Numbered from the stretch's first letter, positions 6,079 through 59,519 are shown. The stretch is DNA of 64,000 nucleotides from Verrucomicrobiota bacterium (GCA_043803015.1 JAZDKK010000039.1:2708-66707); one strand, 5' to 3'. Notes: generated by a model from the sequence alone, not told the origin. Translations and numbers: made by a program.

Positions 6079-6552
6079 CTAGTCACTTGTCAAGGCCTGG
6101 TCCCTCTGTCCACGCAACAGGGATTCAACCAGCTGTTGGTGAGGGAGACTCCTTTGCGGATTGCTAAGAGAGAGTTCGCGGATCCGCCGCGGAGTCCCCC
6201 ATGCGATCGAATACAACACGCCGTCTTTCACACGGCCGCTGTAATCCCCGACGCCGTGTTCAACCGCGTCCTGCAACGAGCCCATCACTTCGTCGAAAGC
6301 CTGCGAGGTCTGCTCCTGCCACTGTGTCGCACTCTCGGTCTTCTTGCGAAGGTCATGGGATCGGCGACACATGCGCGTGCTGCTGGACGCGTGCAACCAT
6401 TCGACAGTGTCAACGACTCCTGCCAGCGGACTGGATCGAACTATGACCACGCATGCATCGAGGGAGGGATCTGCCTCGAATGCAGCGAGAAGTCTTCGTC
6501 TCGCCGGAGAACAAAAGTTGTTCCGGAGGAAGCGGCGTAGGGAATATGTCAT
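6079..6552 (-). CDS. candidate immunity protein for the RHS C-terminal toxin (no recognisable family)
   Basis: 157-aa ORF. Its ATG (6552..6550) overlaps the RHS stop (6551..6549) in an ATGA overlap. It sits in the position typical of cognate immunity genes and looks lower in GC than its surroundings. Confidence 0.5.
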   Translation of the reverse strand: MTYSLRRFLRNNFCSPARRRLLAAFEADPSLDACVVIVRSSPLAGVVDTVEWLHASSSTRMCRRSHDLRKKTESATQWQEQTSQAFDEVMGSLQDAVEHGVGDYSGRVKDGVLYSIAWGTPRRIRELSLSNPQRSLPHQQLVESLLRGQRDQALTSD

Positions 6553-16200: not shown

Positions 16201-19044
16201 GTCGCTAGGCCCCCCCGCGCTCAGGGCGTAACTGTAGAACACGTAGGTATTACTGACATAGTATGTGCCGATCAAATAGCGCCGGTCGAACGAGAACAGA
16301 TTGCGGGTGTTGGAGAAGTTCTTAGGATCACCTGAGTTAAACCACAGAGCCACTGTGTAACTGCTGTTGGTCGTTGGGTTCCTGCTGACCCGGATGTGAT
16401 CGTTCGTCCCGTCGAACTGGTACCAGCCGCCTGGCCCGTTGGTGACGTAGGTTGCCCCCCACATTACAGTCCCGCTGTTGGTGTGGCCCGAGAGGTCCGT
16501 AACGTTAGTGCCCTCGTTGTCGGCGAAGCTGTAGTACATCACCAAGCCGTTCGTAGGCGGCAGGGCTTCGGCCTTGATGTAGATCGTTCCTGTCAGCGTG
16601 CTCAGGTTCGAGATGGTTCCCGAGATGCTGGTCAGGAAGGAGTTCGTCAGGAGTGGGTTGGACCCGTTGCTGACTTCCAGCGCATCCGAGTACCCATCGC
16701 CATCCGTGTCGTTGGTCTTAGGGTTGGTGCCGTAGGTATTGACCTCGTCCCCGTCCCAGAGCGTGTCCCCGTCCGTGTCGTTGGTTTGCCAGTTAGAGAG
16801 GTCGGTCAGGTTGGTGTAGAGCCCGTTCCCATCCGTGTCCTCCAAGAAATCCCAGAGCCCGTCCCCGTCGCTGTCATTGGTGGAGGGGTAGTGGAATGAG
16901 ATGTCCACGACCGAGTTGGATTCCTTCACGTGGTTCGTGGCCGTGGTGAAGTGGTAGAGGCCCAGCGCATCTGCGTTCGCGGAGCCGGCGTTTACAGCCC
17001 CGGAGGTCTGAAGCAAGTAGTTGCTGCCTTGGGAGCCTACGGCAAACGGGCTGTTCGTCAGCACGAGCGTGTTGGTCCCCGCCCAGCCCGCCGTACAGTT
17101 GTAGGTCCCGTTGAAATCGAAGAGCGCCCTCACTTCGCAGTTCGAGCTGAACGTGTTCGTCACCGAGGCAAACACGGTATCTCGCACAGCCAATTGCGAT
17201 ACGCTACCTGTGGCGCACAGGGCCCAGTTGGTCATCCGGTCGAACGTGCAGGCTTGGACCAGGACTGCGTTCGCCTCAGCCCGGATGCCCTCCGGCGTGT
17301 CCCGAATCAGGCAGTTGAACACCGTGGCCGTCTCGGAGCCCTGGTTCACCTCGATGGCCCGGTCGCAGAACGAAAGCTGGGCGTCCTGCACGCGCTGTCC
17401 GCCGGCACTTGAGGAGAACCGAATGCCTGTTTGAGCGTACCGGATCCTCAGCCCTTTCACCGTGTTGTTGGTTGGAGATTCGAAGATCAGGGCGGCCCAG
17501 TACTTGTTGGAAACCGGGTTGGCGGAGTAAATGGTCTCGCCCGCGCCGTTCGTGTCGCCGGCGGTCGTGAACAGCGCCGGGCTCAGGGCGTGGGATTTCG
17601 TCTCGATCCGGGCGCCGTTCTGGAACTTGATACTCGCCGAGTTCGTGAGCTTCACAAAGCAGCCCGGCTCGATGGTCAGGATGGCGTTCGGGCCGTCGAA
17701 CACCAGCGGGTTCTTAATGAAGTACGTATTGGCCGTCCTGAACGTCACCTGGAGCGTGTTCGTGCCCGAATAGTCCACGTAATCCACGACATAGCGCTGC
17801 GGGGAGCGGGGAACGTAGACGGACCGCGAATTCACGCGAATTGACCCGCCTTCGCCGGGGGCTTTGGCGAGGCGCGGCGCGAAAGGAAGCGGCCTTTCTT
17901 CTCTTCCATTTCGCGTCGTTCGTGTATTTCGTGGGCTCCTCTTCCTTGCAATCCTTTGCGCCTCTTCGCGGCCATTCTTGCCTTCCGCGAAAAGATACGA
18001 GGCTTCCTTCATCAGGGCTCCCGCGAGGACTTCCTCCGAGAGGTACGTCCTCCCTTCCACCGAGAGCACCCGCATGGCCACCGGTTGCCCCGCGCCGCTC
18101 CCGCCCAGGGTCAGGCTGGCTTCATCTTCCGCGTATGCCTGGCACCGCTGCCAGTTGTGAATCCTCCGGCGGGTTCCGGGTTCCTGGGAGAACACCTGCA
18201 ACGGCGCCGGGCTCGGGTCGTCAGCTTTGATATCGCCCTCACGCTCGGTGTCCGCGCCAGAGAGATCGAAGTCCACCAGCTCCGTCAGGATACACAGGAC
18301 ACTTTCGTTGTCGTCCAACCCGTAGACCGAGGGCGAGGGCAGGCCGCCGAACAGCACAATGTCCTGCTCCAGGCCCCACGGATGGACGCGGTAGACGATG
18401 TCGGCATCTGCGCCGTCGAAAGCGCTTGGGTAGAACACGCCTTCGTCGAAGGGTTGGGCCTTGGAGTCCTTCACTTGGGCGAACACGAAGCTCTTCCCGG
18501 TGGTCTCCTCATAGTAGCTCAGGCCCGCCACGGCGCAGTTGGCGAGTTTCGTTCCGTCACCCGAGGTCTCGACCACGGTTTCCAGGTTGGCGTTGGCGGC
18601 GAAGCGGTACTGGACGGGCAGGTTGCTGAAGGTGACCACGCCGTCTGCGGCAACTTCGGGTTTTATAGCGGAAGGCTGCCACTGGCCCGCGTCGTCCCGA
18701 TAGTTCAAGCCGCTCCCCAGTTCCGTGTAGCCAGGCGAGATGATCTCGGACTGAACGCTGCCGTCGCTGTACGTTGTATAGCGTACCTGCTCGATCTTCC
18801 GGCTGAATTCCGAGCAGGACTCAGGCGCTTCGGTCCACTGCGTGACCGAGGAGACGGGAGCAGGTGGTGGGCCGGGCGGGGCGTTGGTCGAGGCGATCTC
18901 CGTCAGGACGGAGTCGCCGAGCAAGGTGTTCGTAGACAGAGCGTCGGGCTGATCGAGGTCGGGCAACTGAGCAAAGGAAACGCTGCAAACAACGAGCCCG
19001 ATCAGGTTGATCAAACCCAAGAGACTTCCGCTCCCCACTCTCAC
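13267..19044 (-). CDS. giant secreted multi-domain protein with a parallel beta-helix region, thrombospondin-type-3-like Ca-binding repeats and at least four LamG/ConA-like lectin domains
   Basis: The open frame runs to 19098, but there is no ATG there. The likely start is GTG 19044, behind a GGAGG Shine-Dalgarno, giving the signal peptide (M)RVGSGSLLGLINLIGLVVCSVSFA. DxDxDG repeats are present (DTDGDGYSD, DPDADGDGFTD, DSDQDGMPDWWE). LamG-like blocks are present (e.g. LDGTNDYVRVPQNP...WRYLALTYDGTNARLYVDG...GKLDDVRLY). The stop lies 1 nt before the RHS ATG. Confidence 0.85.
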   Translation of the reverse strand: MRVGSGSLLGLINLIGLVVCSVSFAQLPDLDQPDALSTNTLLGDSVLTEIASTNAPPGPPPAPVSSVTQWTEAPESCSEFSRKIEQVRYTTYSDGSVQSEIISPGYTELGSGLNYRDDAGQWQPSAIKPEVAADGVVTFSNLPVQYRFAANANLETVVETSGDGTKLANCAVAGLSYYEETTGKSFVFAQVKDSKAQPFDEGVFYPSAFDGADADIVYRVHPWGLEQDIVLFGGLPSPSVYGLDDNESVLCILTELVDFDLSGADTEREGDIKADDPSPAPLQVFSQEPGTRRRIHNWQRCQAYAEDEASLTLGGSGAGQPVAMRVLSVEGRTYLSEEVLAGALMKEASYLFAEGKNGREEAQRIARKRSPRNTRTTRNGREERPLPFAPRLAKAPGEGGSIRVNSRSVYVPRSPQRYVVDYVDYSGTNTLQVTFRTANTYFIKNPLVFDGPNAILTIEPGCFVKLTNSASIKFQNGARIETKSHALSPALFTTAGDTNGAGETIYSANPVSNKYWAALIFESPTNNTVKGLRIRYAQTGIRFSSSAGGQRVQDAQLSFCDRAIEVNQGSETATVFNCLIRDTPEGIRAEANAVLVQACTFDRMTNWALCATGSVSQLAVRDTVFASVTNTFSSNCEVRALFDFNGTYNCTAGWAGTNTLVLTNSPFAVGSQGSNYLLQTSGAVNAGSANADALGLYHFTTATNHVKESNSVVDISFHYPSTNDSDGDGLWDFLEDTDGNGLYTNLTDLSNWQTNDTDGDTLWDGDEVNTYGTNPKTNDTDGDGYSDALEVSNGSNPLLTNSFLTSISGTISNLSTLTGTIYIKAEALPPTNGLVMYYSFADNEGTNVTDLSGHTNSGTVMWGATYVTNGPGGWYQFDGTNDHIRVSRNPTTNSSYTVALWFNSGDPKNFSNTRNLFSFDRRYLIGTYYVSNTYVFYSYALSAGGPSDPGVQQQSSGFSLEHGTWHHVALVVDGVQTSGTFYLDGGFLGSGTGGGSVNTGWKQVIMGALHNWSTNSFWIGRLDEGMVYDRALSLTDVTNLYELGVNFYIVGVTNLPSPGSYTLTNLSTLKRYTIFAWADANTNGVRERWEPCGVYTGSPLYLTAQASGIDILLVDPDADGDGFTDYSELAAGTDPDDSNSYPVAISGDVGYGGRQTGTVWVTANIQPPTNSLAVHYDFNIDEPTNIVDMSGNGYTGRLFGATYTNTGVLGGAYYFSNDYIRVGTGDVLDVVVGGITCLTACTWVKLEKLNIESLFIGKYQTPYPYTGWALWQQSQNLAGTELMATWPNRAQALSTTLMTTGVWYFLCGTFEVGTNFMRSRIYVNGVLEGTAETNGSHATTDTSAELWLGKRAPGGIWPFYGRQDETRIFTRLLGAQEIASLYQHGLSRHYQAQTASPGAYVISNVPNLRLYNVDAYRDSNGNQSNDATEAQGTYTNNPVYLVNSTSNINITLTDLDSDQDGMPDWWEIQYGLNPSSGVSAARVGWWKFDETSGTNADNAASSSYDGQLVNMATNVWVTGKLGNALELDGTNDYVRVPQNPPMITGQQFTASGWAYLKSGFPTYYPTLIADMYVCGGYNYPGFWLGYDKDVPGPAGLLGTCGGYAYPYATVTMTNVWRYLALTYDGTNARLYVDGAQVAVQSGSFVAATQAEVRIGWGNDPSFDYHWQGKLDDVRLYSTALSSNAVYTMYDALQDKDGDGLLNLQEFQYGANPTNTDTDGDERSDGQEVLDGTDPAVWESPLPYSTGFETNEGFWGGGLDGQGHWTCSSANVVVESNTVHEGAQAVCLSGWGSSAQHGLYGTNAVVTNTIYLYLTDASVFPPATSSIPTNASGVISYDPDQGIMAYDGSGGGSWKAVTNSLLPNRWVQLQVILNYTGKTWAVSVDGGPPLTGLGFRYSGCGSLHGVRLSSGSAGEVCVDDVSIKGQ

Positions 19045-19329
19045 GCCCACCCTCCCTGATTCCAAGCGTGGACACAACCCCTGCGCCGTTCGGTGCACAG
19101 CCTAAGGGGGCATGCGCCGAATGCAAGCAGTTTCCTTTCCCCATCTCATTGCCCTCCCCGGCCCGGGCTCTTCGGCCTGTTGGCCCGCCTGGCTGAAGTG
19201 CGGGTTTCTGGCTGTCTTCCTTCGCCAGCAGGCTGAAGCCTGAACGCCAGCGGGCCGCGGATTCCCTTTTTTTCTGCCCGCCGAACCGCGTCTGTGATAG
19301 CCTGTTCCCGGCTTTGGAGGCGCGAACAC

Positions 19330-19608
19330 ATGGTGGCGAAATACCAGCGGCGGCCAGGCGTCGGCGAACAGCAGGTGGGCGACGAACGGATGCTCCTGGA
19401 CGAGGCGTCCAATGCCGTCCACGTGCTGAACGGCTCCGCGGCGTCCATCTGGGATTGCCTGAAGGCTCCGGTCACGCTCGACGAAATCCGGCAGCGGCTC
19501 TCCTCGGAGTACGACCTGGGCGCCGCCCGCAACGTCCCCGCCATGATCCAGCACACGCTCGACGACCTGCAGAAGAAGGGCTTGGTCCTGACGGTCTCCG
19601 CTGACTAG
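19330..19608 (+). CDS. PqqD-family protein (RiPP-recognition-element-like peptide chaperone)
   Basis: ATG 19330, 8 nt after GGAGG. The 92-aa sequence GDERMLLDEASNAVHVLNGSAASIWDCLKAPVTLDEIRQRLSSEYDL...DDLQKKGLV fits the PqqD pattern of beta-strands, LN..a..iW and a helical bundle. Confidence 0.8.
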   Translation: MVAKYQRRPGVGEQQVGDERMLLDEASNAVHVLNGSAASIWDCLKAPVTLDEIRQRLSSEYDLGAARNVPAMIQHTLDDLQKKGLVLTVSAD

Positions 19609-19640
19609 TACATACGAAAGAAGTCTTTTGACAATTCACA

Positions 19641-19740
19641 CCCTCTCCCCGCCATGGCGGGCAAGCCCCATGGAGAGAGAGGTAGAGCCCGGTTCATCCG
19701 GGCTAGGGTAGCCCGCGTGAAGCGGGCTCTACGGGGGGGG
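19641..19740. repeat. palindromic hairpin cluster between the PqqD gene and the DUF362 gene
   Basis: CCCTCTCC...GGAGAGAGAGG surrounds the palindrome GCCATGGC. GTAGAGCCCG (19682-19691) pairs with CGGGCTCTAC (19723-19732), enclosing two smaller hairpins (CCCGG-TTCAT-CCGGG and CCCGC-GTGAAG-CGGG). Confidence 0.5.
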
Positions 19741-19793
19741 GCGGAACCGAGCAATCGTTGTTCGCCTTGCTGCGTTTGCATTAGGGCCTATGT

Positions 19794-20630
19794 GTGATGA
19801 TCCGAGTCGCCTGCATCCAAGCTCAAGAGCTCCGGGGCTCTCTGGCCGACTCGCTGGATGCGCTCGGCGCCGACGTCCGCGCAGGCCTTCGCGGCGCCCG
19901 CATCCTCGTCAAGCCAAGCCTGAACAGCCCGGATCCCCCGCCGGCCTCCACGGATCCCGAGTTCCTCTCCGCGCTCGTCCAGCTCCTGAAGGACGCCGGG
20001 GCCGCGGACATCGTCATCGGCGACAGCTGCGGCCTGCGCTGGTGCCCGGCCGACAAGGTCCACGAACGCCTCGGCGTGCCCGGGCTCGCCCGCCGGCTCG
20101 GCGCGACCTACGTCAACTTCGACTCCGGGCCCTGGCGCACCGTCCCCGTCAACGGCAGGGCTTTGAAGGAAGTGGCCATAGCCGAGGCGTCCTTCCAGGC
20201 CGACAAGATCGTCTACGCCGCCTGCATGAAAACGCACCGCCTCGCGCGGTACAGCCTCAGCCTCAAGCACGCCGCCGGATTCCTCTCGCCGAAGATGCGA
20301 TGCCGCCTCCACCAGGGCGATCTCGAGTCGAACATCGCCGACATCAACCTGGCCGTTAAGCCCGACCTGATCTTCGTCGACGGCCGGACGTGCTTTGTCA
20401 GCGGCGGTCCCGCGCGCGGTTGGGTCCGCCGCCCGGGCATGATCCTGGCCTCGACGGACCGCGTGGCCGTGGACGTCGAGGCACTCAAGATTCTCTTGTC
20501 GTTCTTCGCCTTCAACCGCGTCCGGCGGGACCCGTGGGCCAACCCGCAGATCCGCCACGCTGTCGCCCTCAACCTGGGCGCGACGAGCGAAGCCGACTAC
20601 GAGGTGGTGAGGGGAGGAGCGTCGCGATGA
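19794..20630 (+). CDS. DUF362 domain-containing protein
   Basis: 278 aa, with a GTG 19794 or ATG 19797 start. DUF362-like blocks: ILVKPSLNSP, IVIGDSCG, MKTHRLARYSLSLKH, VDGRTCFVSGGP, LASTDRVAVDVEALKIL. Confidence 0.7.
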   Translation: MMIRVACIQAQELRGSLADSLDALGADVRAGLRGARILVKPSLNSPDPPPASTDPEFLSALVQLLKDAGAADIVIGDSCGLRWCPADKVHERLGVPGLARRLGATYVNFDSGPWRTVPVNGRALKEVAIAEASFQADKIVYAACMKTHRLARYSLSLKHAAGFLSPKMRCRLHQGDLESNIADINLAVKPDLIFVDGRTCFVSGGPARGWVRRPGMILASTDRVAVDVEALKILLSFFAFNRVRRDPWANPQIRHAVALNLGATSEADYEVVRGGASR

Positions 20631-22072
20631 ACGTGGCGCTCATCGACCTGGATCGGCGGCACCACCTTTTCAAGGTCCCGCTCTGGTGGCCCGTCTACCT
20701 GCCGTCCGTGGCCGCGGTGCTGCGCGAGAGCGGCCATGCGGTGGCGCTGATCGAGCGCGGCGTGCTGGAAGCCCGATCCCACGACAACGCCGACGAAGTC
20801 CTCCGGCGGCTTGTCGCCCGCGTCGTGAGCGCCGAGCCGGAGCTCGTGCTGTTCGATGTCCGCGCCGATTCGGCATCCGACCTGAACGCCTTCGCCGAGG
20901 CGGCACGCCGCGGCGCGCCGCGCGCGCGGCTTCTCGCCGGCGGACGGCATCCGACGCTTTGCCCGGACGAAACGCTCGAGGACTGCGGGTTCCTCGACGG
21001 CATCGTGGCCGGCGAGGCGGAGAACGCGATGTCACGCCTGGCTGCCGGCGCCGCGCTGGACGCGGTGCCCTCCGTGGTCTTCCGCCAGGCCGGGCAGGCG
21101 GCGCGCACCGCCGGCGAGGCTCCCGTGACCGACCTCGACACCCTCCCCCTCCCCGCCTGGGACCTGCTGGACATGCGCTACTACGCGCGCCGCACGCCGC
21201 GCGCGATCCCCTGCTTTCCCCTCAAGACGGCCACGCTGGAAACCTCGCGCGGCTGCCCCGGCCAGTGCACCTTCTGTTCCGAGGGCCGGATGAACTCGAA
21301 GGCGCATCGGTTCCATGGCGCCGCGTACGTGGCGGAAGCCATCCAGCTCCTGATCCGGGACTACGGCATCGACGGGGCCTACTTCTGCGACGAATCCTTT
21401 CTCGCGAACCCCGGGCGGGTCATGCAGTTATGCGAGGAGCTGATGCGCCAAGGCCTCGACCGGAAGATCCGTTGGTCGGCGCAGGTTCGCACGGACTCGG
21501 TGAATCCGGAGATCCTCGCCGTCCTCCGGAAGGCCGGATGCGTCCAGCTCGAGTACGGCGTGGAGAGCGGGTCGCAGCGCATGCTGGACAGCGTCGCCAA
21601 GGGGGCGACGATGGAGCAGAACGCCGCGGCCGTGCGGCTCGGCCGCGAGGCCGGCGTGCGGGCCCTCGTGTACATCATGTACGGACTTCCCGGCGAAACG
21701 CGGGACGACCTCCGCGAGACGGCGCGGTTCCTGGGCCGGACCAGGCCCGACATCGTGCGCTTCATCCGCTTCATGCCCTTTCCCGGAACGCCCGCCGCCC
21801 AGCAGCTCGTGGCCGCGGGCAGGCTCCCGAGGGATTTCTGGAGGGAGGCGCGCGGCGGTCGCTCCTTCTTCGAGTACACGCGGGAAAACGTGTCGGCGAT
21901 GCCGGCCGAGGTGCTCCGGACCGAAGCCCGCAGCGTTTACTTCCGGCGCGTGTTCCCGGTCTACCTCCGCGACTACCTGCGTCGCAACAGCCCGGCGGAC
22001 ATCCTTTCCCACATGCAGGCCGCGGAGCTCCTCCGGTTCCTGCGTGAGAAGATGGTTGCGCCGCGAGAATGA
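20627..22072 (+). CDS. B12-binding-domain radical SAM protein
   Basis: ATG 20627 overlaps the DUF362 stop (ATGA). There is an N-terminal Rossmann-like B12-binding region. The radical SAM cluster motif is SRGCPGQCTFCSE (CxxxCxxC). Downstream lies GVESGSQRMLD. Confidence 0.85.
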   Translation: MNVALIDLDRRHHLFKVPLWWPVYLPSVAAVLRESGHAVALIERGVLEARSHDNADEVLRRLVARVVSAEPELVLFDVRADSASDLNAFAEAARRGAPRARLLAGGRHPTLCPDETLEDCGFLDGIVAGEAENAMSRLAAGAALDAVPSVVFRQAGQAARTAGEAPVTDLDTLPLPAWDLLDMRYYARRTPRAIPCFPLKTATLETSRGCPGQCTFCSEGRMNSKAHRFHGAAYVAEAIQLLIRDYGIDGAYFCDESFLANPGRVMQLCEELMRQGLDRKIRWSAQVRTDSVNPEILAVLRKAGCVQLEYGVESGSQRMLDSVAKGATMEQNAAAVRLGREAGVRALVYIMYGLPGETRDDLRETARFLGRTRPDIVRFIRFMPFPGTPAAQQLVAAGRLPRDFWREARGGRSFFEYTRENVSAMPAEVLRTEARSVYFRRVFPVYLRDYLRRNSPADILSHMQAAELLRFLREKMVAPRE

Positions 22073-22085
22073 AGGATTGTGCACC

Positions 22086-23276
22086 ATGGGCGCCTTTGAC
22101 CTGATCGAAACGATGACGCTCTCCGCGGGGGAACGGGCCGCCATCGTGGCGGACGCGACGCACTCCGCCGATTTCCTGATCTGCGGAAACCGCATCCGCA
22201 TCCTGGGGAACACGCCGCTGCCCGCGGAGAAGTACCTGAGGTACTACCGCGCGTTCGCCGCCGAGCGCGCGGACCAGGCCGCCGACCTGGCCGTCTACTG
22301 CCGCTTGTCGGACAGCGCGTCGGGCCGCGCGGTGACCTTTCTCGCGGGCGACGAGGCGTACAGGATCACGGACCCGGACGTGATCGACCACCTCGACACG
22401 ACGCTCGACTACCTTATCTTCCCGCGGATAAGGTCTCACTACCTCGTCCACGCCGGCTGCGTGTCGCGCGGCGGCCAGGGCATGATCCTCTCGGGCTCCT
22501 CCGGGATGGGCAAGACCACGCTGACGACCTACCTCGTGTCCCGGGGCATGGGCTACCTCTCCGACGAGATCGCGCCGATCCACCGCAAGGACTGCACGGT
22601 CGAGCCCTTTCCGCTCCGGCTCGGCGTCCGCCCCGGCCCTGCGCGCAAGCTGGTCGAGGGCCTGCCGGGCGACGACTTCTCGTACGGCACCGACGAGAAG
22701 CGGCTGGTGGACGTCCGCGACCTGGGCGGACCCCCGGTCCGCGGCCCCGTGCCGCTCCACGCGGTCGTCTTCCTCGCCCAGCGCGCCACGAAGGAGGTCT
22801 CGACGCCCCTGAAGTTCGCCGGCGAAGTGCGGGTGAGCTTCCTGGGCGTGACCCCGGAATTCCGGACTGAGCTGCTGGAGAAGACCGGCACCACCCTGGT
22901 GCGGGAGGAGAAGCTGAGTCCCAAGGTCGTTGCGTGGCGGCTGCGCGTGGCCGACTCCTCCTCGTTCCTTCCGACCCTCTACGCGGTCGCCGGGAAGCAC
23001 GGCCTCCCGGTGGCGGGCGTCGAGTACGAGGACATCGACCGGCACGATTTCTCGGTGTCCCCCCATCTCGTCGAGCTGCCGAAATCGTCGGGCGTCATGG
23101 AACTCATCAAGAAGATGTCGTCCTTCCAGAAACAGAGGATCATGGACGCGGACTTCAACGGCAAGATGCCCCCGTTCGTGCAGGGAATCACGCAGCTCAC
23201 CCGGGGCGTGGCCTTCTACAAGCTCTCGCCCGGCCGCCTCGACGAGATGCTTTCCGCCCTCGAGGGCCTCCCATGA
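22086..23276 (+). CDS. HPr-kinase-related (HprK C-terminal-domain-like) P-loop kinase
   Basis: The preferred start is ATG 22086, with AAGGA 9 nt upstream. An alternative ATG 22044 overlaps the radical SAM gene. The Walker A motif LSGSSGMGKTTLTTYLVSRG followed by YLSDE resembles HprK-like kinases that accompany PqqD-type genes. Confidence 0.7.
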   Translation: MGAFDLIETMTLSAGERAAIVADATHSADFLICGNRIRILGNTPLPAEKYLRYYRAFAAERADQAADLAVYCRLSDSASGRAVTFLAGDEAYRITDPDVIDHLDTTLDYLIFPRIRSHYLVHAGCVSRGGQGMILSGSSGMGKTTLTTYLVSRGMGYLSDEIAPIHRKDCTVEPFPLRLGVRPGPARKLVEGLPGDDFSYGTDEKRLVDVRDLGGPPVRGPVPLHAVVFLAQRATKEVSTPLKFAGEVRVSFLGVTPEFRTELLEKTGTTLVREEKLSPKVVAWRLRVADSSSFLPTLYAVAGKHGLPVAGVEYEDIDRHDFSVSPHLVELPKSSGVMELIKKMSSFQKQRIMDADFNGKMPPFVQGITQLTRGVAFYKLSPGRLDEMLSALEGLP

Positions 23277-25108
23277 CGACGGCCCCCACCACACCCGCCG
23301 ATTTGACTCCCCTGGTCCGGACCTTCGGCCGCAGCATGCTGCCGCTGATCAGGAACCGGTCCCTGGTCCGCTACCTCCCGGCGACGGCCGACGACGTGGC
23401 GGTCGGCGACATCATCGTGTTCCGCCTGGCCGGCAAGCTCCACGCTCACCGCCTGATCGGCAAGCGGTCCGAAGGCGGCCAAACCCTCCTTCGGCAGAAG
23501 GGGGATCACGAGCTCTGCGGAAGCTGGGTCGAGGCCGAGGCGCTGGCGGGCAAGGCCGTCTCCGTCAGCCGCGGCACGGAGACCTGCCGCCTGGACGTGA
23601 ACCCGCGATCGCTCCGACTCCTCCTGCTGACGGCGTACGCGCGGCTCGAGTCCGGCATCGTCACGGCCTACGTCCGCCTCAAGAGCGGGCGCCGCTGGCT
23701 CGCGTGGATCAAGGGCCCCGCCCTCCTCCTGGCCTTGGCGGCAGCCCCGTTCCGATGGCTCCTCTTCCGCCTCCTCCTCACGGTCTACCGACGCCGGAGA
23801 AGGACCGAAGACCCGGCCGACCTGGCGTTTCTCCTGGCCTGCTTCCGCAGCGTCCACGACGCCGGCGGCAGGGAACCCCTGCCGCCGGTCTCCGACTGGA
23901 ACACGCTGATCGAAACGCTGGGGGTCAACCGGCTGGCGCCGCTGGCGCTCAAGCTGCTGTCGGAGGATGAGACGCGCGGGCCCGCACCTCCCCACGTCCT
24001 GCAGGTGCTGAAACAGATCCGGTACCGCGCCGCCCTGTCCCACCTCTCCGCCCTGGCGGCGCTCGGCGACATCGACCGCCTCTTCCAGGCTGCGGGCGTG
24101 GGCTACGCGGTGCTCAAAGGTCCCTACCTCTACGAGTCACTCTACGGCGGGCTCTTCCCCCGCGAGTACGAAGACATCGACCTGCTGGTGCGCCCCGCCG
24201 CCGTGGACAAGGCCTTGCCCCTGCTGTGGTCGGCGGGCTACGAGCCCGTCGGCGGAACCTGGGCCCGTTCGCTGATGCGGCGCGGGCACTTCCACCTCAC
24301 GCTCCACTCCACCGTGCCGGGGCGCCCGCCCGTCGAGCTGCACTGGTCCCTGGTGGACCGGGCCAACCTCTACCGCATCGACAACGTGGATGTCCTGCTG
24401 CGCGCCCGCCCGTTCCACGCCGGCGACCGGAAGTTCTTTGCCCTGTCCGCCGAAGACCAGTTCATCTACCTCTGCCTCCATGCCGCCAAGCACGGCGTGC
24501 TCAACGGGATCGGCCTCGCGCAGGGCTGCCCGCCCGAGTGGTTCTGCCGCCGCACCACCGGGAACGACCTGACCTGGTTCATGGACCTCGACCTCTTCCT
24601 CCAGAACGAGATGGCGGGCTTCAGCTGGACCAGGCTGGTCGAGAAGACCCGCGACTGGAACGTCATGGCCCCGATTGTCGAGTGCCTCCGCGTGCTCCGG
24701 CTGCTCCAGCCGGCCTCGGCGGCGGGCGCGGCCCTGGAGAAGCTGGGGTACTTCGACCCCGCGCCTGGCAGCGCGCCGGAGGCGACCCCGCCCTCGGCGA
24801 GGTTGCTCAAGAGCCGCGCGGGGCAGAGACTGCTGGAGAGCTCGATGCAGATGAACCCGGCGTTCTTCTTCCGCCCGGTCCGCCTGCTCCTGGCCGCGCG
24901 CCTCCTGTTCCCATCGCGCGAGGACCTGATCCAGTACTACGGCAGCCGCGACCGCCGGGGCCTCGTGAAGCTGCGTCTCACCCATCCGTTCCACATGCTG
25001 CGGAAGGTGTTCGGACGTCCCGCCGGCAGGCGCGAACCCTCGTCCCCGCCGGCCGCCGCCCATGCCCAGCGGCGCCCGGCATCGACCATCAGGGCGCGCC
25101 GGGGCTGA
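23273..25108 (+). CDS. fusion protein: S24/S26 (signal-peptidase-like) domain, transmembrane segments, and an NTP_transf_5 (PF14907-like) nucleotidyltransferase domain
   Basis: ATG 23273 overlaps the kinase stop (ATGA). The peptidase-like part reads FGRSMLPLI...GDIIVFR...HAHRLIGK. The hydrophobic stretch is [27 protein letters not shown]. The nucleotidyltransferase-like part reads [16 protein letters not shown]...[10 protein letters not shown]...VELHWSL. Confidence 0.7.
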
Positions 25109-25126
25109 GCCATCGCGCGCGTTCGG

Positions 25127-25190
25127 CTTGTCCCGCCGACTTGTCCGCCGGAGCCTTGGCGAAGGCGGAAGCTCGGCGAAGGCGGGAGAA
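25127..25190 (-). repeat. GC-rich repeat unit (CCGCCTTCGCC x2 ... GGCGGACAAG / GGGACAAG)
   Basis: The reverse complement reads ctcccgccttcgccgagcttccgccttcgccaaggctccggcggacaagtcggcgggacaag. This is near-identical to 63316-63377. Confidence 0.7.
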
Positions 25191-25210
25191 CGCGGGCCAC
25201 CACGGCGCCT

Positions 25211-25263
25211 TTTTTTCCAAGGGTTGGAAAAAATCCCGCCGGTTTTTCCAATCATTGGAAAAA
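25211..25263. repeat. pair of AT-rich palindromes TTTTTTCCAA-GGG-TTGGAAAAAA and TTTTTCCAA-TCA-TTGGAAAAA
   Basis: The palindromes lie at 25211-25233 and 25243-25263, with centres 31 nt apart. The same two-palindrome architecture and 31-nt spacing occur at 59469-59519. Confidence 0.75.
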
Positions 25264-25317
25264 CTTCTTTCGGCGGGGCGGCCGGCGTGGTATAGCGACC
25301 CCGCGGAGGGTTTGGTC

Positions 25318-25872
25318 ATGGAAGAGCTGATTCGCCAGTGGCTGATCAAGATCGGCGAGGACCCGGATCGCCCCGGCCTGAAACGCACGCCCCACCGCGT
25401 GGCGGAGTCCTGGAAGTTCCTCACGCGCGGCTACTCCCAGGACGTCCACGAGGAGATCAAGTCGGCGCTCTTCGACGTGGAAGCCAACCACATGATCATC
25501 GTCAAGGACATCGAGATCTACAGCATGTGCGAGCACCACCTCCTGCCCTTCTTCGGACGCTGTCACATCGGGTACATCCCGAAGGGCAAGGTGCTCGGCG
25601 TCAGCAAGCTCGCGCGCATCGCGGACATCTTCTCCCGCCGGCTCCAGCTCCAGGAGCGCCTCACGAACCAGGTCGCCCGCGAGTTGATGGACCACCTTCA
25701 GCCCGAGGGCGTGGGCGTGGTCATCGAGGCGCGCCACCTGTGCATGATGATGCGGGGCGTGGAGAAACAGAACTCGAGCATGGTGACCTCCGCCATGCTC
25801 GGGAGCTTCCACGACTCCATCGCCACCCGCCACGAGTTCCTGACCCTCATCGGCCACGAGCAGAGGGTGTAG
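25318..25872 (+). CDS. folE: GTP cyclohydrolase I
   Basis: 184 aa starting from MEELIRQWL. It contains the signature [12 protein letters not shown] and ERLTNQVA...[22 protein letters not shown] Shine-Dalgarno lies upstream. Confidence 0.95.
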
Positions 25873-25890
25873 GCGGCGTCGATCGCCAGG

Positions 25891-26061
25891 TCATGTTGCG
25901 GCCGCGTACGCCTTGGCGAAGTCCTTGGCGAACTCCTCGATCGTGGTCGGCGTGGTGTTGACTTTGGACCGCGCTTCCGCGGCACGGATGCGGCCTTCGT
26001 TGAAGCCCTGCAGCATCTCGATCATCAGCTGCGCGATCAGGCCGAATGCTCGCAGGGAGGT
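25891..26061 (-). pseudogene. possible remnant of the 3' end of an unrelated gene, in frame with and immediately after the TAG stop of the SGNH hydrolase gene
   Basis: 56 sense codons (TSLRAFGLIAQLMIEMLQGFNEGRIRAAEARSKVNTTPTTIEEFAKDFAKAYAAAT, then TGA) have protein-like composition. There is no start codon of its own. Confidence 0.25.
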
Positions 26062-26736
26062 CTACGTCAGCGGCGGGTTGGTCTTCGGCATCGTCGCCGC
26101 GGCCAGGGCAATCTTCATGGGCAGGTTCGCGGCCACCATCCGGTCGTACAGCATCCCGTGCCCCTGGTCGTTGATGGCCACGCCGTCACTGCCCTGGCAC
26201 TCCGGCTTGATCGTCCCGTCTTCCTTGGCGAGGCCGGTCCAGAAATCGAGGGCGCGGTCGCCGAACGTGGACATGATCCGGCCCCGGAGCTCGGCCAGCT
26301 GCTGCCGCTGGACCGGCGACGCCGCCCGGGGCTGGGAGGTCGTCACCCACACGGGCACCTTCTGCTTCTGGGCTTCCTTCACGAGCGCGTCGAGGTTCGT
26401 CATCTGCTCCTGCACCGCGTAGCCCGCGGCGACATCGGCTGTGGGAAAGCTGAGGATGATCGCGGACGGCTTCAGGGAAAGGGCATGGGTGATGTTGTGG
26501 GCGGCATCCGGGGCGGGCCGCCCCAGCGGCGGCTTGAACGTGGTGGGCATGACGTGGTACGTCGTGTGTCCCGCCACCGAGAGATTGACGATCCGGCTGC
26601 CCGGCCGCGCCGTGGCAAGATGAATGGCGTACCGGTTGGTCCAAGCCATCTGGAAGTTCGACGCGCCCACCCCGGCCGCGCACGACGAACCCAGAACCGC
26701 CACGACCAGCGGCGACGAAGAAGCAGGCCCTGCCAT
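26062..26736 (-). CDS. SGNH/GDSL-family hydrolase-like protein
   Basis: 224 aa. Block I-like VAVLGSSCAAG. Block V-like SDGVAINDQGH. No signal peptide is visible. Confidence 0.6.
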   Translation of the reverse strand: MAGPASSSPLVVAVLGSSCAAGVGASNFQMAWTNRYAIHLATARPGSRIVNLSVAGHTTYHVMPTTFKPPLGRPAPDAAHNITHALSLKPSAIILSFPTADVAAGYAVQEQMTNLDALVKEAQKQKVPVWVTTSQPRAASPVQRQQLAELRGRIMSTFGDRALDFWTGLAKEDGTIKPECQGSDGVAINDQGHGMLYDRMVAANLPMKIALAAATMPKTNPPLT

Positions 26737-26811
26737 GCGAGTACGCGCTCCCTTCTGATCACGCCATGCTCATAATTACCCCAACCACGGGGGGTTGTAC
26801 AAGCCCTCGCC

Positions 26812-27183
26812 CTACGCCCGGCCCCGCCGGCGCGTCACCTCCGCTGCGACGCTCCGCGCGAAGCGGAGGGCGCCGGGCTTGTCCACGGTCACCGTCGCAC
26901 CCGCGACCCGCGAATCCTGCAGGCAGAGCCCGGCGATCCTGTCGGCAAGCGTTTCGATCAGGTTGAAACTGCTGTTCTCGACGAGCTGGATGATCTCTTT
27001 CTTGATGCCCTTGTAGTCCACGGCATCCTTCAGCTGATCGCTCCGGGCGGCGGCCGAGTGATCGCATTCCATCACGACATTGATGATCACATCCTGCTTC
27101 TCGCGCCGCTCCTCGGGATAGACGCCGATGATGCACCGGAGCGCGAGGTCCCGGATGTGGATCTTGTCCGCGTTCTTCCTCAT
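26812..27183 (-). CDS. folB: dihydroneopterin aldolase
   Basis: The start MRKNADKIHIRDLALRCIIGVYPEERREKQDVIINV matches the FolB N-terminal pattern. ATG 27183 overlaps the SDR stop by 1 nt (TGATG). Confidence 0.8.
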   Translation of the reverse strand: MRKNADKIHIRDLALRCIIGVYPEERREKQDVIINVVMECDHSAAARSDQLKDAVDYKGIKKEIIQLVENSSFNLIETLADRIAGLCLQDSRVAGATVTVDKPGALRFARSVAAEVTRRRGRA

Positions 27184-27914
27184 CAACCAGCCCCCAACAG
27201 GTGTTGTCCTCCATCCACGAAGAGGATCTGCCCCGTGATCGCTTCGTGCTCCAGGAGGAACACCACGGCCTCGGCCACGTCCTCCGGCTTGACCTGCCGT
27301 TTCAGGGGCACCGGCCCAGCCTGGTCGCGGAGGTACCTCGCGCCCTTCCCGGGCGGCGGCAGGACCGCGCCGGGTGCGACGGCGTTGACCGTGATGCGCG
27401 GCGCCAGCTCGAGCGCCGCCATGCGCGTCACCTCGGCCAGCGCCTTCTTGCTCAGCACGTACGGCACGCAGGAGGTGTCGAGCGATGTGATCCGCCGGTC
27501 CAGCAGGTTGATGATCTTCCCCTTCCTTGCGCGCTCGGCGAACGCGCGCATCAGGAGCATCGGCGCAAACAGGTTGGGCCAGAACTCTGCCTGAAGCTTG
27601 TTCCCGGTCACGCCGTGCAGGGAATCCTTGTGGAAAACCGCCGCGTTGTTGACGAGGATGTCCAGCCGGCCCGCCCGCGCGGCCGCCCGCCGGATGAGCG
27701 ACCTGCAGGCCTTCTCCGAGTCCAACGCGGCCTGGATCGCCCAGGCCTTGCCGCCCCTGCCCCGCACCAGCCGCGTCAGCCCTGCGGCGTCGCGCGCGGA
27801 ACGGTTGTAGTGAACGACCACGTGCGCACCGCGAGCTGCGAGGGCCAGGCAGATCGCCCGCCCGATCCTCGCCGCTCCGCCGGTCACTAAAGCAACGTGG
27901 CCCTTCAGGTTCAT
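27183..27914 (-). CDS. SDR-family oxidoreductase, pteridine/dihydromonapterin-reductase-like by context
   Basis: Start at MNLKGHVALVTGGAARIGRAI (TGxxxxIG cofactor motif), NNAA, and a YxxxK region (YVLSKKAL). It is coupled to folB. Confidence 0.8.
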   Translation of the reverse strand: MNLKGHVALVTGGAARIGRAICLALAARGAHVVVHYNRSARDAAGLTRLVRGRGGKAWAIQAALDSEKACRSLIRRAAARAGRLDILVNNAAVFHKDSLHGVTGNKLQAEFWPNLFAPMLLMRAFAERARKGKIINLLDRRITSLDTSCVPYVLSKKALAEVTRMAALELAPRITVNAVAPGAVLPPPGKGARYLRDQAGPVPLKRQVKPEDVAEAVVFLLEHEAITGQILFVDGGQHLLGAG

Positions 27915-28071
27915 GGCGCGCTCCTTGATGCGTTGCGCTTCCGGCACTTTACTTCATCGCCCCGCAGACTTCCAAGCCCCGGAATTGAACACGGCAACGC
28001 GACGGGGGGTATAGTGTTGCCGCGGGGAGGTCCGTGTACTACCATTTCCGCACCCTACGAGGGAGCTGACG

Positions 28072-59468: not shown

Positions 59469-59519
59469 TTTTCCAACCCTTGGAAAAATCGGTGGCTATT
59501 TTTCCAAACATTGGAAGAA
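59469..59519. repeat. pair of AT-rich palindromes TTTTCCAA-CCC-TTGGAAAA and TTTTTCCAA-ACA-TTGGAAGAA
   Basis: The centres are 31 nt apart, exactly as at 25211-25263. The element ends 10 nt before the bioA ATG. Confidence 0.75.

What the first reader, a model, noticed from the sequence alone, without database searches (positions are those of the whole stretch)
19330..25108. PqqD / DUF362 / B12-radical-SAM / HprK-like kinase / peptidase-nucleotidyltransferase operon: peptide-modification machinery with no recognisable substrate gene or cyclase
**Seen in the sequence**
- Five co-directional genes with start/stop coupling: ATGA overlaps at 20627-20630 and 23273-23276, and either a 29-nt overlap or a 13-nt gap at 22044/22086.
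- Diagnostic motifs: a PqqD-like fold pattern, DUF362 blocks, CPGQCTFC behind a B12-binding-type N-domain, the Walker A motif GSSGMGKT in an HprK-like protein, GRSMLP in a peptidase-like domain, and YEDIDLLV in an NTP_transf_5-like domain.

**Established knowledge (recalled, not checked)**
- PqqD-like domains act as RiPP recognition elements.
- HprK-related kinases and PF14907-type nucleotidyltransferases accompany some lasso-peptide clusters.
- A TIGRFAM-defined 'HPr-rel-A' PqqD/kinase neighbourhood has no known function.

**Inference**
This locus has no asparagine-synthetase-like lasso cyclase, no transglutaminase-like B2 protease and no ABC exporter. It adds a class-B-like radical SAM enzyme and a DUF362 protein instead. 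That combination suggests a different and possibly undescribed maturation pathway: radical chemistry, phosphorylation and/or nucleotidylation, and leader removal at the membrane.
Basis: partly seen in the sequence, partly recalled or inferred. Interest (0 to 1): 0.8.

Follow-up and report, generated by a model that had tools for sequence, protein, structure and literature searches.

The report
Peptide-modifying operon missing its substrate gene
This is an intact five-gene operon from a Verrucomicrobiota genome that closely resembles the machinery for the recently described "linear polyphosphorylated peptide" natural products, with a radical-SAM enzyme and a DUF362 protein added, but unlike almost all of its relatives it has no precursor-peptide gene and no exporter next to it.

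Summary
In detail: five co-directional, tightly coupled genes at 19330-25108 encode these proteins.
- A PqqD-type peptide-recognition protein
- A DUF362 protein
- A B12-binding radical SAM enzyme
- A distant HprK-like P-loop kinase
- A fusion of an archaeal/ER-type signal peptidase I domain to an NTP_transf_5 nucleotidyltransferase

Four of these modules are the published core of "linear polyphosphorylated peptide" (LPP) clusters (PMC13381572, 2026), which that paper says are restricted to Bacillota.

Ten relatives (35-66% identity, PVC-group metagenomes) carry 1-6 small genes, immediately after PqqD wherever PqqD is present. The 29-71 aa products have the consensus M..K..FEEPxVxTYxRDELxVETAFTG plus a 3-34 aa variable tail. 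This is a precursor family with no Pfam domain on record. Many relatives also carry a Wzx-like flippase.

The window has neither. A 40-sequence precursor HMM finds nothing in 64 kb. The slot holds a 186-nt hairpin-rich spacer. Its closest contextual relative, L029, also lacks both. The two are sisters in 100/100 bootstraps, and all five genes are intact in the window (in L029 the fusion gene runs off the contig end).

Best reading: a working LPP-like maturation module that acts on precursors encoded elsewhere. It is a new variant of a known kind, not a lasso cluster.

The parts
19330..19608 (+). PqqD-type RiPP recognition element (92 aa), LppB / lasso B1-like
   Evidence: PF05402 41.9 bits, above the 23.4 cut-off. 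TIGR04353 38.3 bits, above the 35 cut-off. Best PDB sequence hits are PbaB1 9X90, LppB 9X8Z and TfuB1, all weak at E 0.13-0.5. Pairwise to LppB: 26% identity over 85 aa, E 1e-7.
19609..19793 (+). 186-nt non-coding spacer at the position where relatives carry their precursor genes. It contains a 14-nt palindrome (19648-19661) and a 51-nt imperfect palindrome (19682-19732).
   Evidence: RNA fold -95.2 kcal/mol, z -5.3, 0 of 200 shuffles as stable. No Rfam family. Unique in the window. No match to the precursor HMM in any frame. The 47-aa ORF at 19654-19797 has no Shine-Dalgarno sequence and no relatives. L004 and L027 have strong hairpins after their last precursor gene.
19794..20630 (+). DUF362 protein (277-278 aa), function unknown
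   Evidence: PF04015 152.8 bits. No PDB sequence relative. DUF362 shares Pfam clan CL0471 with the LarA N-domain (PMC11770544). Its stop overlaps the radical SAM start (ATGA at 20627-20630).
20627..22072 (+). B12-binding-domain (class B-like) radical SAM enzyme (481 aa), subfamily unassigned
   Evidence: PF02310 49.8 bits and PF04055 81.4 bits. CxxxCxxC motif at 21254-21277. Best NCBIfam models are BchE and ApyD at about 148 bits, far below their cut-offs. PDB relatives: AprD4 2e-20, then OxsB, TokK and TsrM.
22086..23276 (+). HprK-like P-loop kinase (396 aa), LppK/ScmC-like
   Evidence: TIGR04352 E 2.4e-13 and PF07475 E 1.6e-5, both below their cut-offs. PF07475 is matched by all 7 family members scanned. 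Walker A motif at 22494-22517. AlphaFold2 model pLDDT 92.7; Foldseek hits PEPCK at 2.5e-7 and HprK/P at 3.5e-5. 100% identical to NCBI protein V1873_04040 from a Verrucomicrobiota MAG.
23273..23608 (+). N-terminal archaeal/ER-type signal peptidase I (S26B, SipW/Sec11/LppS-like) domain of the fusion protein, aa 1-112
   Evidence: TIGR02228 38.6 bits, E 9.5e-10. A family profile hits SEC11C/SEC11A at 5e-8. 31% identity to LppS, with Ser21 aligned to Ser29 and His59 to His68. H59, R60, K76, G77 and D78 are invariant across 17 fusions. The predicted fold matches LexA and SEC11A.
23612..23785 (+). Two long helices (aa 114-171) linking the two domains. The second is hydrophobic and may associate with the membrane.
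   Evidence: AlphaFold2 secondary structure H114-139 and H141-171. Membrane topology was not tested.
23891..24703 (+). NTP_transf_5 nucleotidyltransferase domain of the fusion protein (aa 207-477), LppN/PsmN-like
   Evidence: PF14907 147.8 bits. Invariant D301 and D303 (EDIDLL) and the HFH and ELHW motifs. The same Pfam family defines the "putative NTP transferase" of LPP clusters.

Best explanation
**What it is**
The operon is the enzyme set of a RiPP pathway of the "linear polyphosphorylated peptide" (LPP) type, in a variant found in PVC-group bacteria.

**Proposed steps, by analogy (all inferred)**
1. The PqqD protein binds the [F/Y]xxPx[V/I] motif in the leader of a 30-40 aa precursor.
2. 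The HprK-like kinase phosphorylates a hydroxyl residue just after the leader. Two candidates exist. One is the near-invariant Thr of "ET-A-F-T", which corresponds to Ser3 of "FET|AQS" in LppA. The other is the Ser/Tyr/Thr found 4-6 residues further on in 41 of 45 precursors.
3. The B12 radical SAM enzyme, probably together with DUF362, adds a further modification. Its chemistry is unknown; C-methylation is the commonest class B reaction.
4. The NTP_transf_5 domain elaborates the phosphate with a glycosyl or nucleotidyl group, as in pseudomycoidin.
5. The fused SipW-type peptidase domain removes the leader, probably after "..V-E-T", with the RRE presenting the site.

**What is special in this genome**
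The precursor genes and the Wzx-like flippase that accompany the operon in many relatives are absent. The same is true of its sister locus L029. The machinery therefore most likely acts on precursors encoded elsewhere in the genome.

**Shown versus inferred**
- Shown: domain identities, gene coupling, synteny, the existence and position of the precursor family in relatives, and the absence of a precursor in this window.
- Inferred: every chemical step, the cleavage site and substrate supply in trans.
For: **Domain assignments**.

**Same core as LPP**
- PMC13381572 defines LPP clusters by SpI (TIGR02228), a discrete PqqD RRE, an HprK-like kinase, NTP_transf_5 and an exporter.
- It shows kinase-dependent polyphosphorylation of core Ser3 and RRE-dependent cleavage after T-1 by LppS S29/H68/D93.

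**Synteny**
- L001, L004, L007, L024/25, L026, L027, L028 and L030 share PqqD, 1-6 small ORFs, (DUF362), radical SAM, (MOP flippase), HprK-like and the fusion. L028 has no PqqD.
- L002 and L013 have the same layout without the radical SAM gene.
- L032 is a 1-kb fragment showing only the PqqD end, two precursor ORFs and the DUF362 start.

**Precursor family**
- Consensus M..K..FEEPxVxTYxRDELxVETAFTG.
- 34 clusters in 5.8e9 proteins, with no Pfam domain on record.
- S/T/Y at +4 to +6 in 41/45.

**Window lacks a precursor**: HMM best E 4.3; regex and tblastn negative.

**Sister locus**
- L029 has PqqD overlapping DUF362, with no precursor and no flippase.
- Window plus L029 are sisters in 100/100 bootstraps, inside a clade whose other members have precursors (99/100).
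- All five genes are intact in the window and catalytic motifs are conserved.
- L007 shows that extra precursor copies can lie just downstream of the fusion gene and about 6 kb downstream of the operon.
Against: - No precursor is seen for this genome, so substrate supply in trans is an assumption.
- Profile-profile comparison of the PVC precursors with LppA leaders aligns only the short RRE-binding motif and is not significant (E 0.0095, probability 4%).
- The kinase and peptidase assignments are below curated cut-offs at sequence level.
- LppS Asp93 has no obvious counterpart. The family has a 9-residue deletion after KGD relative to SEC11.
- In the published system the S3T and S3Y variants were not phosphorylated and LppN showed no activity. 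A Thr or Tyr acceptor and a role for the nucleotidyltransferase are therefore extrapolations.
- Nothing constrains the radical SAM or DUF362 chemistry.
Confidence: 0.72

Rival explanations
1. Orphan remnant. The lineage lost its precursor genes and exporter, and the five enzymes are a non-functional leftover on the way to decay. The hairpin-rich spacer marks where the precursor cassette used to be.
For: - No precursor and no flippase in 64 kb.
- The spacer sits exactly in the precursor slot.
- Two relatives have strong hairpins after their last precursor gene.
Against: - All five ORFs in the window are full length with intact catalytic motifs and start/stop coupling.
- The same precursor-less layout is kept in L029 at only 57-71% protein identity, and the two are sisters in 100/100 bootstraps. 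This implies long retention under selection after the loss.
Confidence: 0.14
2. Not a dedicated RiPP pathway. The module modifies a larger protein or a cell-envelope or polysaccharide component, and the PqqD protein serves as a generic adaptor.
For: - Relatives and published LPP clusters often sit in polysaccharide loci with glycosyltransferases, Wzy and Wzx-like flippases (PMC13381572).
- LPP precursors can reach 200 aa.
- Two giant secreted proteins lie immediately upstream in the window.
Against: - Ten relatives have small precursor ORFs with strong ribosome-binding sites, directly after PqqD wherever PqqD is present.
- No leader-like motif occurs in any frame of the window, including the giant neighbours.
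Confidence: 0.1
3. An ordinary phosphorylated lasso-peptide cluster (paeninodin or pseudomycoidin type) whose cyclase and B2 protease are simply displaced.
For: - The HprK-like kinase, NTP_transf_5 and a B1-like RRE are the tailoring set of paeninodin-type lasso clusters (PMC8498205).
- The nearest unfused nucleotidyltransferase relatives sit beside a lasso B2 protease in L014.
Against: - No Asn_synthase or transglutaminase-type B2 in the 20 large ORFs tested in the window. The only Transglut_core hit in the window is a domain of the 2238-aa RHS protein (6549-13265).
- None is in the called genes within about 10 kb in nine syntenic loci.
- Most cores in relatives are 3-14 residues (41 of 45), too short for a lasso fold.
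- The leader peptidase is the SpI type.
Confidence: 0.03

Closest known systems
Linear polyphosphorylated peptide (LPP) clusters of Bacillota (lppA-K-B-S-D-N; Popov et al., Nat Commun 2026, PMC13381572)
   Same: - The same four enzyme modules, detected by the same models: PqqD RRE, HprK/ScmC-like kinase, TIGR02228-type signal peptidase with Ser and His in register, and NTP_transf_5.
- No cyclase.
- Frequent polysaccharide-locus context in relatives.
- The relatives' precursor leaders share the aromatic-xxPxV motif and a hydrophobic-x-hydrophobic-E-T / x-x-[S/T] junction.
   Different: - PVC-group hosts; LPPs were stated to be restricted to Bacillota.
- The peptidase and nucleotidyltransferase are fused into one protein.
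- B12 radical SAM and DUF362 genes are added.
- Relatives use a Wzx/MOP flippase instead of an MsbA-type ABC exporter.
- Mostly Phe instead of Tyr in the RRE motif, two more residues between Pro and ET, and Thr instead of Ser at core position 3.
- Cores are mostly 3-14 aa, whereas the characterised LppA core is 45 aa (LPP precursors are 35-200 aa).
- Asp93 of LppS has no clear counterpart.
- This window has neither a precursor nor an exporter.
Phosphorylated or phosphoglycosylated lasso peptides (paeninodin, pseudomycoidin; reviewed in PMC8498205)
   Same: - An HprK-homologue kinase acts on a Ser of the precursor.
- A PF14907 nucleotidyltransferase adds hexoses to the phosphate.
- The nucleotidyltransferase is sometimes fused to the leader peptidase.
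- RRE-dependent leader recognition through YxxP.
   Different: - No macrolactam cyclase.
- The leader peptidase is a serine signal-peptidase type, not a B2 cysteine protease.
- The cores are too short to form a lasso.
TIGRFAM "HPr-rel-A" system (TIGR04352 kinase plus TIGR04353 PqqD)
   Same: The PqqD protein passes the TIGR04353 cut-off (38.3 against 35). The kinase's best NCBIfam model is TIGR04352.
   Different: The kinase scores 49.9 bits against a cut-off of 200 and matches only about 75 residues around the P-loop.
SynChlorMet cassette (ScmC HprK-like, ScmD PqqD-like, radical SAM/SPASM maturases)
   Same: A PqqD-like protein, an HprK-like protein and radical SAM enzymes occur together. Homologues carry weak PF27840 ScmC hits.
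   Different: - ScmC scores 15 bits (cut-off 125) and ScmD 16 bits (cut-off 100).
- The radical SAM enzyme here is the B12-binding class, not SPASM.
- No ScmA-type precursor.
Class B (B12-binding) radical SAM enzymes of RiPP and antibiotic pathways (ApyD, TIGR03975 C-methyltransferases, TsrM, TokK, AprD4, OxsB)
   Same: An N-terminal B12-binding-type domain followed by a CxxxCxxC radical SAM core.
   Different: It scores far below every curated subfamily cut-off. The best PDB relative, AprD4, is a dehydratase rather than a methyltransferase, so the reaction cannot be assigned.

Membership tests
LPP RiPP cluster (PMC13381572) | Archaeal/SipW-type signal peptidase I as leader peptidase, with catalytic Ser, His and Asp | tested here: met
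   - TIGR02228 E 9.5e-10 (38.6 bits, below the 51.85 cut-off).
- Family profile against SEC11A/C: 5e-8.
- 31% identity to LppS, with S21=S29 and H59=H68.
- Caveat: LppS D93 has no aligned acidic residue. Only D78 of the KGD motif is invariant.
LPP RiPP cluster (PMC13381572) | Discrete PqqD-type RRE | tested here: met
   PF05402 41.9 bits, above the 23.4 cut-off. 26% identity to LppB, E 1e-7.
LPP RiPP cluster (PMC13381572) | HprK-like kinase | tested here: met
   - PF07475 and TIGR04352 hits around the P-loop are below their cut-offs. PF07475 is matched by all 7 members scanned.
- The AlphaFold2 model (pLDDT 92.7) matches PEPCK and HprK/P folds.
- No direct comparison with LppK was possible because its sequence was not held.
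LPP RiPP cluster (PMC13381572) | NTP_transf_5 (PF14907) nucleotidyltransferase | tested here: met
   147.8 bits against a 31.2 cut-off. The same Pfam family is used in the paper's domain table. Here it is fused to the peptidase.
LPP RiPP cluster (PMC13381572) | MsbA-like ABC exporter in the cluster | tested here: not met
   No ABC transporter or flippase in or next to the operon. Many relatives carry a Polysacc_synt/MurJ-type flippase instead.
LPP RiPP cluster (PMC13381572) | Adjacent precursor with a YxxPxVLxHQxIxFETxxS leader | tested here: not met
   - None in the window.
- Relatives have a related but distinct leader.
- hhalign against 14 LppA leaders is not significant (E 0.0095, probability 4%).
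LPP RiPP cluster (PMC13381572) | Polyphosphorylated linear peptide product | not testable with these tools
   Needs expression and mass spectrometry.
Lasso peptide cluster | Asn-synthetase-like macrolactam cyclase (C) and transglutaminase-like B2 protease | tested here: not met
   - Absent from the 20 large ORFs of the window that were scanned.
- Absent from the called genes of nine syntenic loci.
- The only Transglut_core hit in the window is a domain of the 2238-aa RHS protein.
Lasso peptide cluster | B1-type PqqD chaperone passing the NCBIfam lasso models | tested here: not met
   NF033530 scores 24.9 bits (cut-off 70) and NF033536 scores 24.3 bits (cut-off 80).
HPr-rel-A system (TIGRFAM) | TIGR04353 PqqD_rel_X | tested here: met
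   38.3 bits against a cut-off of 35.
HPr-rel-A system (TIGRFAM) | TIGR04352 HprK-related kinase A | tested here: not met
   49.9 bits against a cut-off of 200; a local match to residues 102-176 only.
SynChlorMet cassette | ScmC and ScmD equivalogs plus SPASM radical SAM maturases | tested here: not met
   TIGR04249 scores 15.1 bits (cut-off 125) and TIGR04248 scores 16 bits (cut-off 100). The radical SAM enzyme is the B12-binding type.
Class B radical SAM | B12-binding-type N-domain plus a CxxxCxxC radical SAM core | tested here: met
   PF02310 49.8 bits (cut-off 32.1) and PF04055 81.4 bits (cut-off 29.5). CPGQCTFC at aa 210-217. Actual cobalamin use is not testable here.

The most novel reading that the evidence does not exclude
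The PVC-group loci represent a distinct, undescribed RiPP class. They would make very short peptides (mostly 3-14 residues) that are phosphorylated, modified by a B12 radical SAM enzyme with DUF362, elaborated on the phosphate by the nucleotidyltransferase, released by a fused signal-peptidase-type domain, and exported by a Wzx-like flippase much as a lipid-linked sugar would be. In the window plus L029 lineage, the enzyme cassette has become a stand-alone module serving precursors scattered elsewhere in the genome, or a non-canonical substrate.
Probability: 0.35. Interest if true: 0.78.

Novelty: new variant of a known kind. Interest (0 to 1): 0.6.

Why it matters
- The LPP family was defined only in 2026. 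Its final product and the role of its nucleotidyltransferase are unknown, and it was reported as confined to Bacillota.
- These loci extend the same enzyme logic to Verrucomicrobiota, Lentisphaerae and Kiritimatiellia.
- They add radical SAM chemistry and fuse leader cleavage to the nucleotidyltransferase step.
- In relatives they come with very short cores, mostly 3-14 residues, which should make the mature product much easier to solve by mass spectrometry or NMR.
- They also define a precursor family with no Pfam domain on record, which can be used for genome mining.
- The precursor-less sister pair (window and L029) is a natural test of whether such maturation cassettes work in trans.

Tried and rejected
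**Spacer and small ORFs**
- Rfam on the window and on the spacer found no riboswitch or known RNA, only tRNA-Leu at 35164.
- The 47-aa Cys-rich ORF in the spacer (19654-19797) was rejected as a precursor. It has no Shine-Dalgarno sequence, no similarity to the family and no relatives.
- The spacer as a repeated mobile element was rejected. It is unique in the window, with only chance-level matches in relatives.
- Simple sigma-70 and terminator scans of 18900-25500 found nothing above expectation.

**Searches for a precursor in the window**
- Precursor HMMs of 8 and 40 sequences, plus three regular expressions, on the six-frame translation gave nothing.
- The search with the precursor profile returned no protein named from this MAG.
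- P0054 itself could not be located in the contig index, so the rest of the MAG could not be inspected.

**Comparisons that added little**
- PDB sequence search for DUF362 returned no hit.
- hhalign of the PVC precursors against LppA leaders was not significant.
- The metagenome scan with DUF362 gave only two short close relatives. One has two precursor genes. The other is too short to tell.
- P0003's contig had no DNA available.

**Literature searches that returned nothing**: PF14907 + RiPP, DUF362 + radical SAM + RiPP, and SynChlorMet.

Full report
**1. Observation**

The region 19330-25108 holds five co-directional ORFs on the + strand:

| Gene | Coordinates | Size |
|---|---|---|
| PqqD | 19330-19608 | 92 aa |
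| DUF362 | 19794/19797-20630 | 277-278 aa |
| B12-binding radical SAM | 20627-22072 | 481 aa |
| HprK-like protein | 22086-23276 | 396 aa |
| Peptidase-nucleotidyltransferase fusion | 23273-25108 | 611 aa |

- The ATGA overlaps at 20627-20630 and 23273-23276 are exact. So is the 29-nt overlap or 13-nt gap at 22044/22086.
- The 22086 start is favoured by the homologue alignment and by a 100% identical 396-aa NCBI protein. That protein is V1873_04040 from a Verrucomicrobiota MAG, on a 73,578-bp contig, and it identifies the source of the window.
- All four quoted motifs are present.

HMM searches confirm PqqD, DUF362, B12-binding plus Radical_SAM, and NTP_transf_5 above Pfam thresholds. The kinase and peptidase assignments are below curated cut-offs. 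Independent evidence holds them up:
- All seven family members scanned hit Hpr_kinase_C around the P-loop.
- A high-confidence model of the kinase (pLDDT 92.7) matches PEP carboxykinase and HprK/P folds.
- A profile of 17 fusion proteins hits the ER signal peptidase subunits SEC11A/C at 5e-8 over the SM-P / HR / KGD boxes.
- The predicted N-domain has the LexA/SEC11 fold.

The peptidase is therefore of the archaeal/ER (S26B, SipW-like) type.

**2. What the relatives show**

The fusion protein has about 20 full-length relatives at 35-51% identity in the 90%-clustered database. It also has roughly 30-35 fusion clusters among the top hits of the 1.84-billion representative set. Named sources are Lentisphaerae, Kiritimatiellia, Verrucomicrobia and "PVC group" MAGs.

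Syntenic loci were recovered with context. The recurrent order is: PqqD, 1-6 small ORFs, (DUF362), B12 radical SAM, (Polysacc_synt/MurJ-type flippase), HprK-like, fusion.
- L001, L004, L007, L024/25, L026 and L027 have the full order.
- L030 lacks DUF362.
- L002 and L013 lack the radical SAM and DUF362 genes.
- L028 lacks PqqD, and its fusion protein carries a second radical SAM domain.
- L032 is a 1-kb fragment showing only the PqqD end, two precursor ORFs and the DUF362 start.

The five genes are thus co-conserved. The PqqD, kinase and fusion genes form the constant core, and the radical SAM, DUF362 and flippase genes are frequent accessories.

No locus contains an Asn-synthetase-like cyclase or a B2 protease among its called genes.

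**3. The precursor family**

The small ORFs form one clear family of 29-71 aa with good ribosome-binding sites.
- The consensus is M..K..F-E-E-P-x-V-x-T-Y-x-R-D-E-L-x-V-E-T-A-F-T-G, followed by 3-34 variable residues.
- Pro and Leu are invariant, and the Thr of "FT" is more than 90% conserved.
- Only 34 clusters were found among 5.8 billion proteins, and none has a Pfam domain on record.
- In 41 of 45 non-redundant members a Ser, Tyr or Thr lies 4-6 residues after that Thr (56% at +5).

**4. The window lacks a precursor and an exporter**

- HMMs built from 8 and then 40 precursors find nothing in the six-frame translation of all 64 kb (best E 0.056 and 4.3). Regular expressions for this leader and for the LPP leader also find nothing.
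- No flippase homologue is present.
- None of 20 large ORFs tested is a cyclase, an ABC transporter or a flippase. The neighbours are two giant secreted proteins upstream and folate/pterin genes downstream.
- The precursor slot is a 186-nt spacer with a 14-nt and a 51-nt palindrome. Its predicted fold is far more stable than shuffles (z -5.3), it has no Rfam match, and it is unique in the window.
- Two relatives (L004, L027) have strong, mutually similar hairpins between the last precursor gene and DUF362. Three others do not. The spacer may be what is left of such a region, but this is weak.

**5. A shared, retained state**

- L029 is the closest relative with context. Protein identities to the window are PqqD 58%, DUF362 71%, radical SAM 60%, HprK 60% and fusion 59%.
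- L029 has the PqqD stop overlapping the DUF362 start. It has no precursor and no flippase on its 7.6-kb contig.
- In a neighbour-joining tree of concatenated kinase and fusion proteins from 12 loci, the window and L029 are sisters in 100/100 bootstraps. They sit inside a clade with L024 and L028 (99/100), both of which have precursors.
- The loss of cis precursors therefore looks like a single event in their common ancestor. All five genes have since stayed intact in the window, with catalytic residues conserved; in L029 the fusion gene runs off the contig end.
- This argues for continued function rather than decay.
- L007 shows that extra precursor copies can lie just downstream of the fusion gene and about 6 kb downstream of the operon. 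Supply in trans is therefore plausible.

**6. Comparison with what is known**

*The LPP family.* A paper of May 2026 (PMC13381572) defines "linear polyphosphorylated peptides". The core genes are these:
- A SipW-like signal peptidase LppS (TIGR02228; catalytic S29, H68, D93)
- A discrete PqqD RRE, LppB
- An HprK-like kinase, LppK
- An NTP_transf_5 protein, LppN
- An MsbA-type exporter
- A precursor with leader YxxPxVLxHQxIxFETxxS

The paper reports the following:
- LppK polyphosphorylates core Ser3.
- LppS cleaves after T-1 only when LppB presents the leader.
- LppN showed no activity, and the final product is unknown.
- The family is restricted to Bacillota.
- The text and the held supplements do not mention radical SAM or DUF362, or any Verrucomicrobia, Lentisphaerae or Kiritimatiellia entry.

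*How the window compares.*
- The peptidase domain aligns to LppS at 31% identity (E 1e-8), with Ser21/His59 matching S29/H68.
- PqqD aligns to LppB at 26% identity (E 1e-7).
- LppA reads ..YARPMVLSQQPVRFET|AQSWNKG. The PVC consensus reads ..FEEPQVVTYDREELVVET AFTG. Both have an aromatic-xxPxV motif and a hydrophobic-x-hydrophobic-E-T / x-x-hydroxyl junction, with two extra residues in the PVC family.
- This resemblance is a lead, not proof. hhalign aligns only the RRE motif (E 0.0095, probability 4%).

*Lasso peptides.* Earlier work (PMC8498205) shows that HprK homologues phosphorylate a precursor Ser, and that a nucleotidyltransferase adds hexoses to that phosphate. It also reports that this nucleotidyltransferase is sometimes fused to the B2 protease. 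The fusion here is the SpI-type counterpart. The nearest unfused nucleotidyltransferase relatives sit with a B2 protease, a PqqD protein and an HprK-like kinase (L014). This shows that the triad is modular.

**7. Mechanism**

Most likely sequence of events (all inferred):
1. The RRE binds the FxxPxV leader.
2. The kinase phosphorylates a hydroxyl near the leader-core junction. Candidates are the conserved Thr of "AFT", or the +4 to +6 Ser/Tyr/Thr.
3. The B12 radical SAM enzyme, with DUF362, adds another modification. The reaction is unassigned: the best PDB relative is the dehydratase AprD4, and the best NCBIfam models are BchE and ApyD, far below cut-off. DUF362 shares a Pfam clan with the LarA N-domain.
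4. The nucleotidyltransferase domain elaborates the phosphate.
5. The fused peptidase removes the leader.
6. In relatives, a Wzx-like flippase exports the product.

For this window the substrate must come from elsewhere in the genome.

**8. Verdict**

It is RiPP machinery without a cyclase and without a cis substrate, but its core matches a family that is now described.
- The novelty lies in several points:
  - the PVC-group variant
  - the added radical SAM and DUF362 genes
  - the peptidase-nucleotidyltransferase fusion
  - the short-core precursor family
  - the conserved precursor-less sub-lineage
- Classification: new variant of a known kind. Interest 0.6.

Noticed in passing
window 19648-19661 and 19682-19732: A perfect 14-nt palindrome (CCCGCCATGGCGGG) and a 51-nt imperfect palindrome lie in the PqqD-DUF362 spacer. 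The fold z-score is -5.3. There is no Rfam match, no T-run after it and no other copy in the window. Its function is unknown; it could be an RNA processing or attenuation element, or a relic.
   Followed up: partly
window 25215-25260 and 59471-59516 (also 58203-58217): Pairs of TTCCAA-N3-TTGGAA palindromes spaced 31 bp apart occur upstream of folE (ATG near 25282/25318) and upstream of the ORF starting at 59529. Five matches were found against 0.05 expected. The two sites align over about 55 bp. They look like a shared operator or promoter element.
   Followed up: partly
window 6549-13265 (-) and 13267-19098 (-): Two adjacent giant genes lie divergently upstream of the operon. One is a 2238-aa RHS-repeat protein with transglutaminase-like, DUF6531 and GH115_C domains. 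The other is a 1943-aa protein with three Laminin_G_3 domains and bacterial TSP3 repeats.
   Followed up: partly
L007:4362-4604 (P0087); also P0106, P0110, P0112: A subset of longer precursors (59-71 aa) ends in a conserved ..SDR[RC]LK.. tail. P0112 residues 36-59 match positions 1-23 of Peptidase_S74, the endosialidase chaperone and self-cleaving domain (E 5e-4, 20.7 bits, just under the 22-bit cut-off). This may be a self-cleaving or follower segment.
   Followed up: partly
L028:11191-14511: In this relative the peptidase-nucleotidyltransferase protein is 1106 aa and carries an extra C-terminal B12-binding radical SAM domain. The locus has precursor genes but no PqqD gene. A second ScmC-like gene and a small S26-like gene lie about 9 kb upstream among glycosyltransferases.
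   Followed up: no
L030:12966-13970; L029:1348-2151: A PhoD-type phosphatase gene lies directly downstream of the fusion gene in L030. A SAM hydroxide adenosyltransferase-like (SAM_HAT) gene lies divergently upstream of PqqD in L029. Both may be accessory functions.
   Followed up: no
L014:6318-11113: A Rokubacteria locus has a lasso-type B2 protease, PqqD, an acyl-CoA-ligase-like protein, an HprK-like kinase and an unfused NTP_transf_5 protein (46% identical to the window's domain). No cyclase was seen among the flanking ORFs tested. This may be another cyclase-less phosphopeptide system.
   Followed up: partly
window 25282-27947: A pterin/folate gene group lies immediately downstream of the operon: GTP cyclohydrolase I (+), a GDSL lipase-like gene (-), dihydroneopterin aldolase FolB (-) and a short-chain dehydrogenase (-). 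There is no evident link to the operon.
   Followed up: no
PMC13381572 supplementary file 2, SSN cluster 6: The LPP paper's dataset lists 197-aa signal peptidase I proteins from Candidatus Brocadia (Planctomycetota) with no co-localised RRE. By eye, their SM-PLIR / GDVIVFRR / AHR / KGDN boxes resemble the window's peptidase domain.
   Followed up: no
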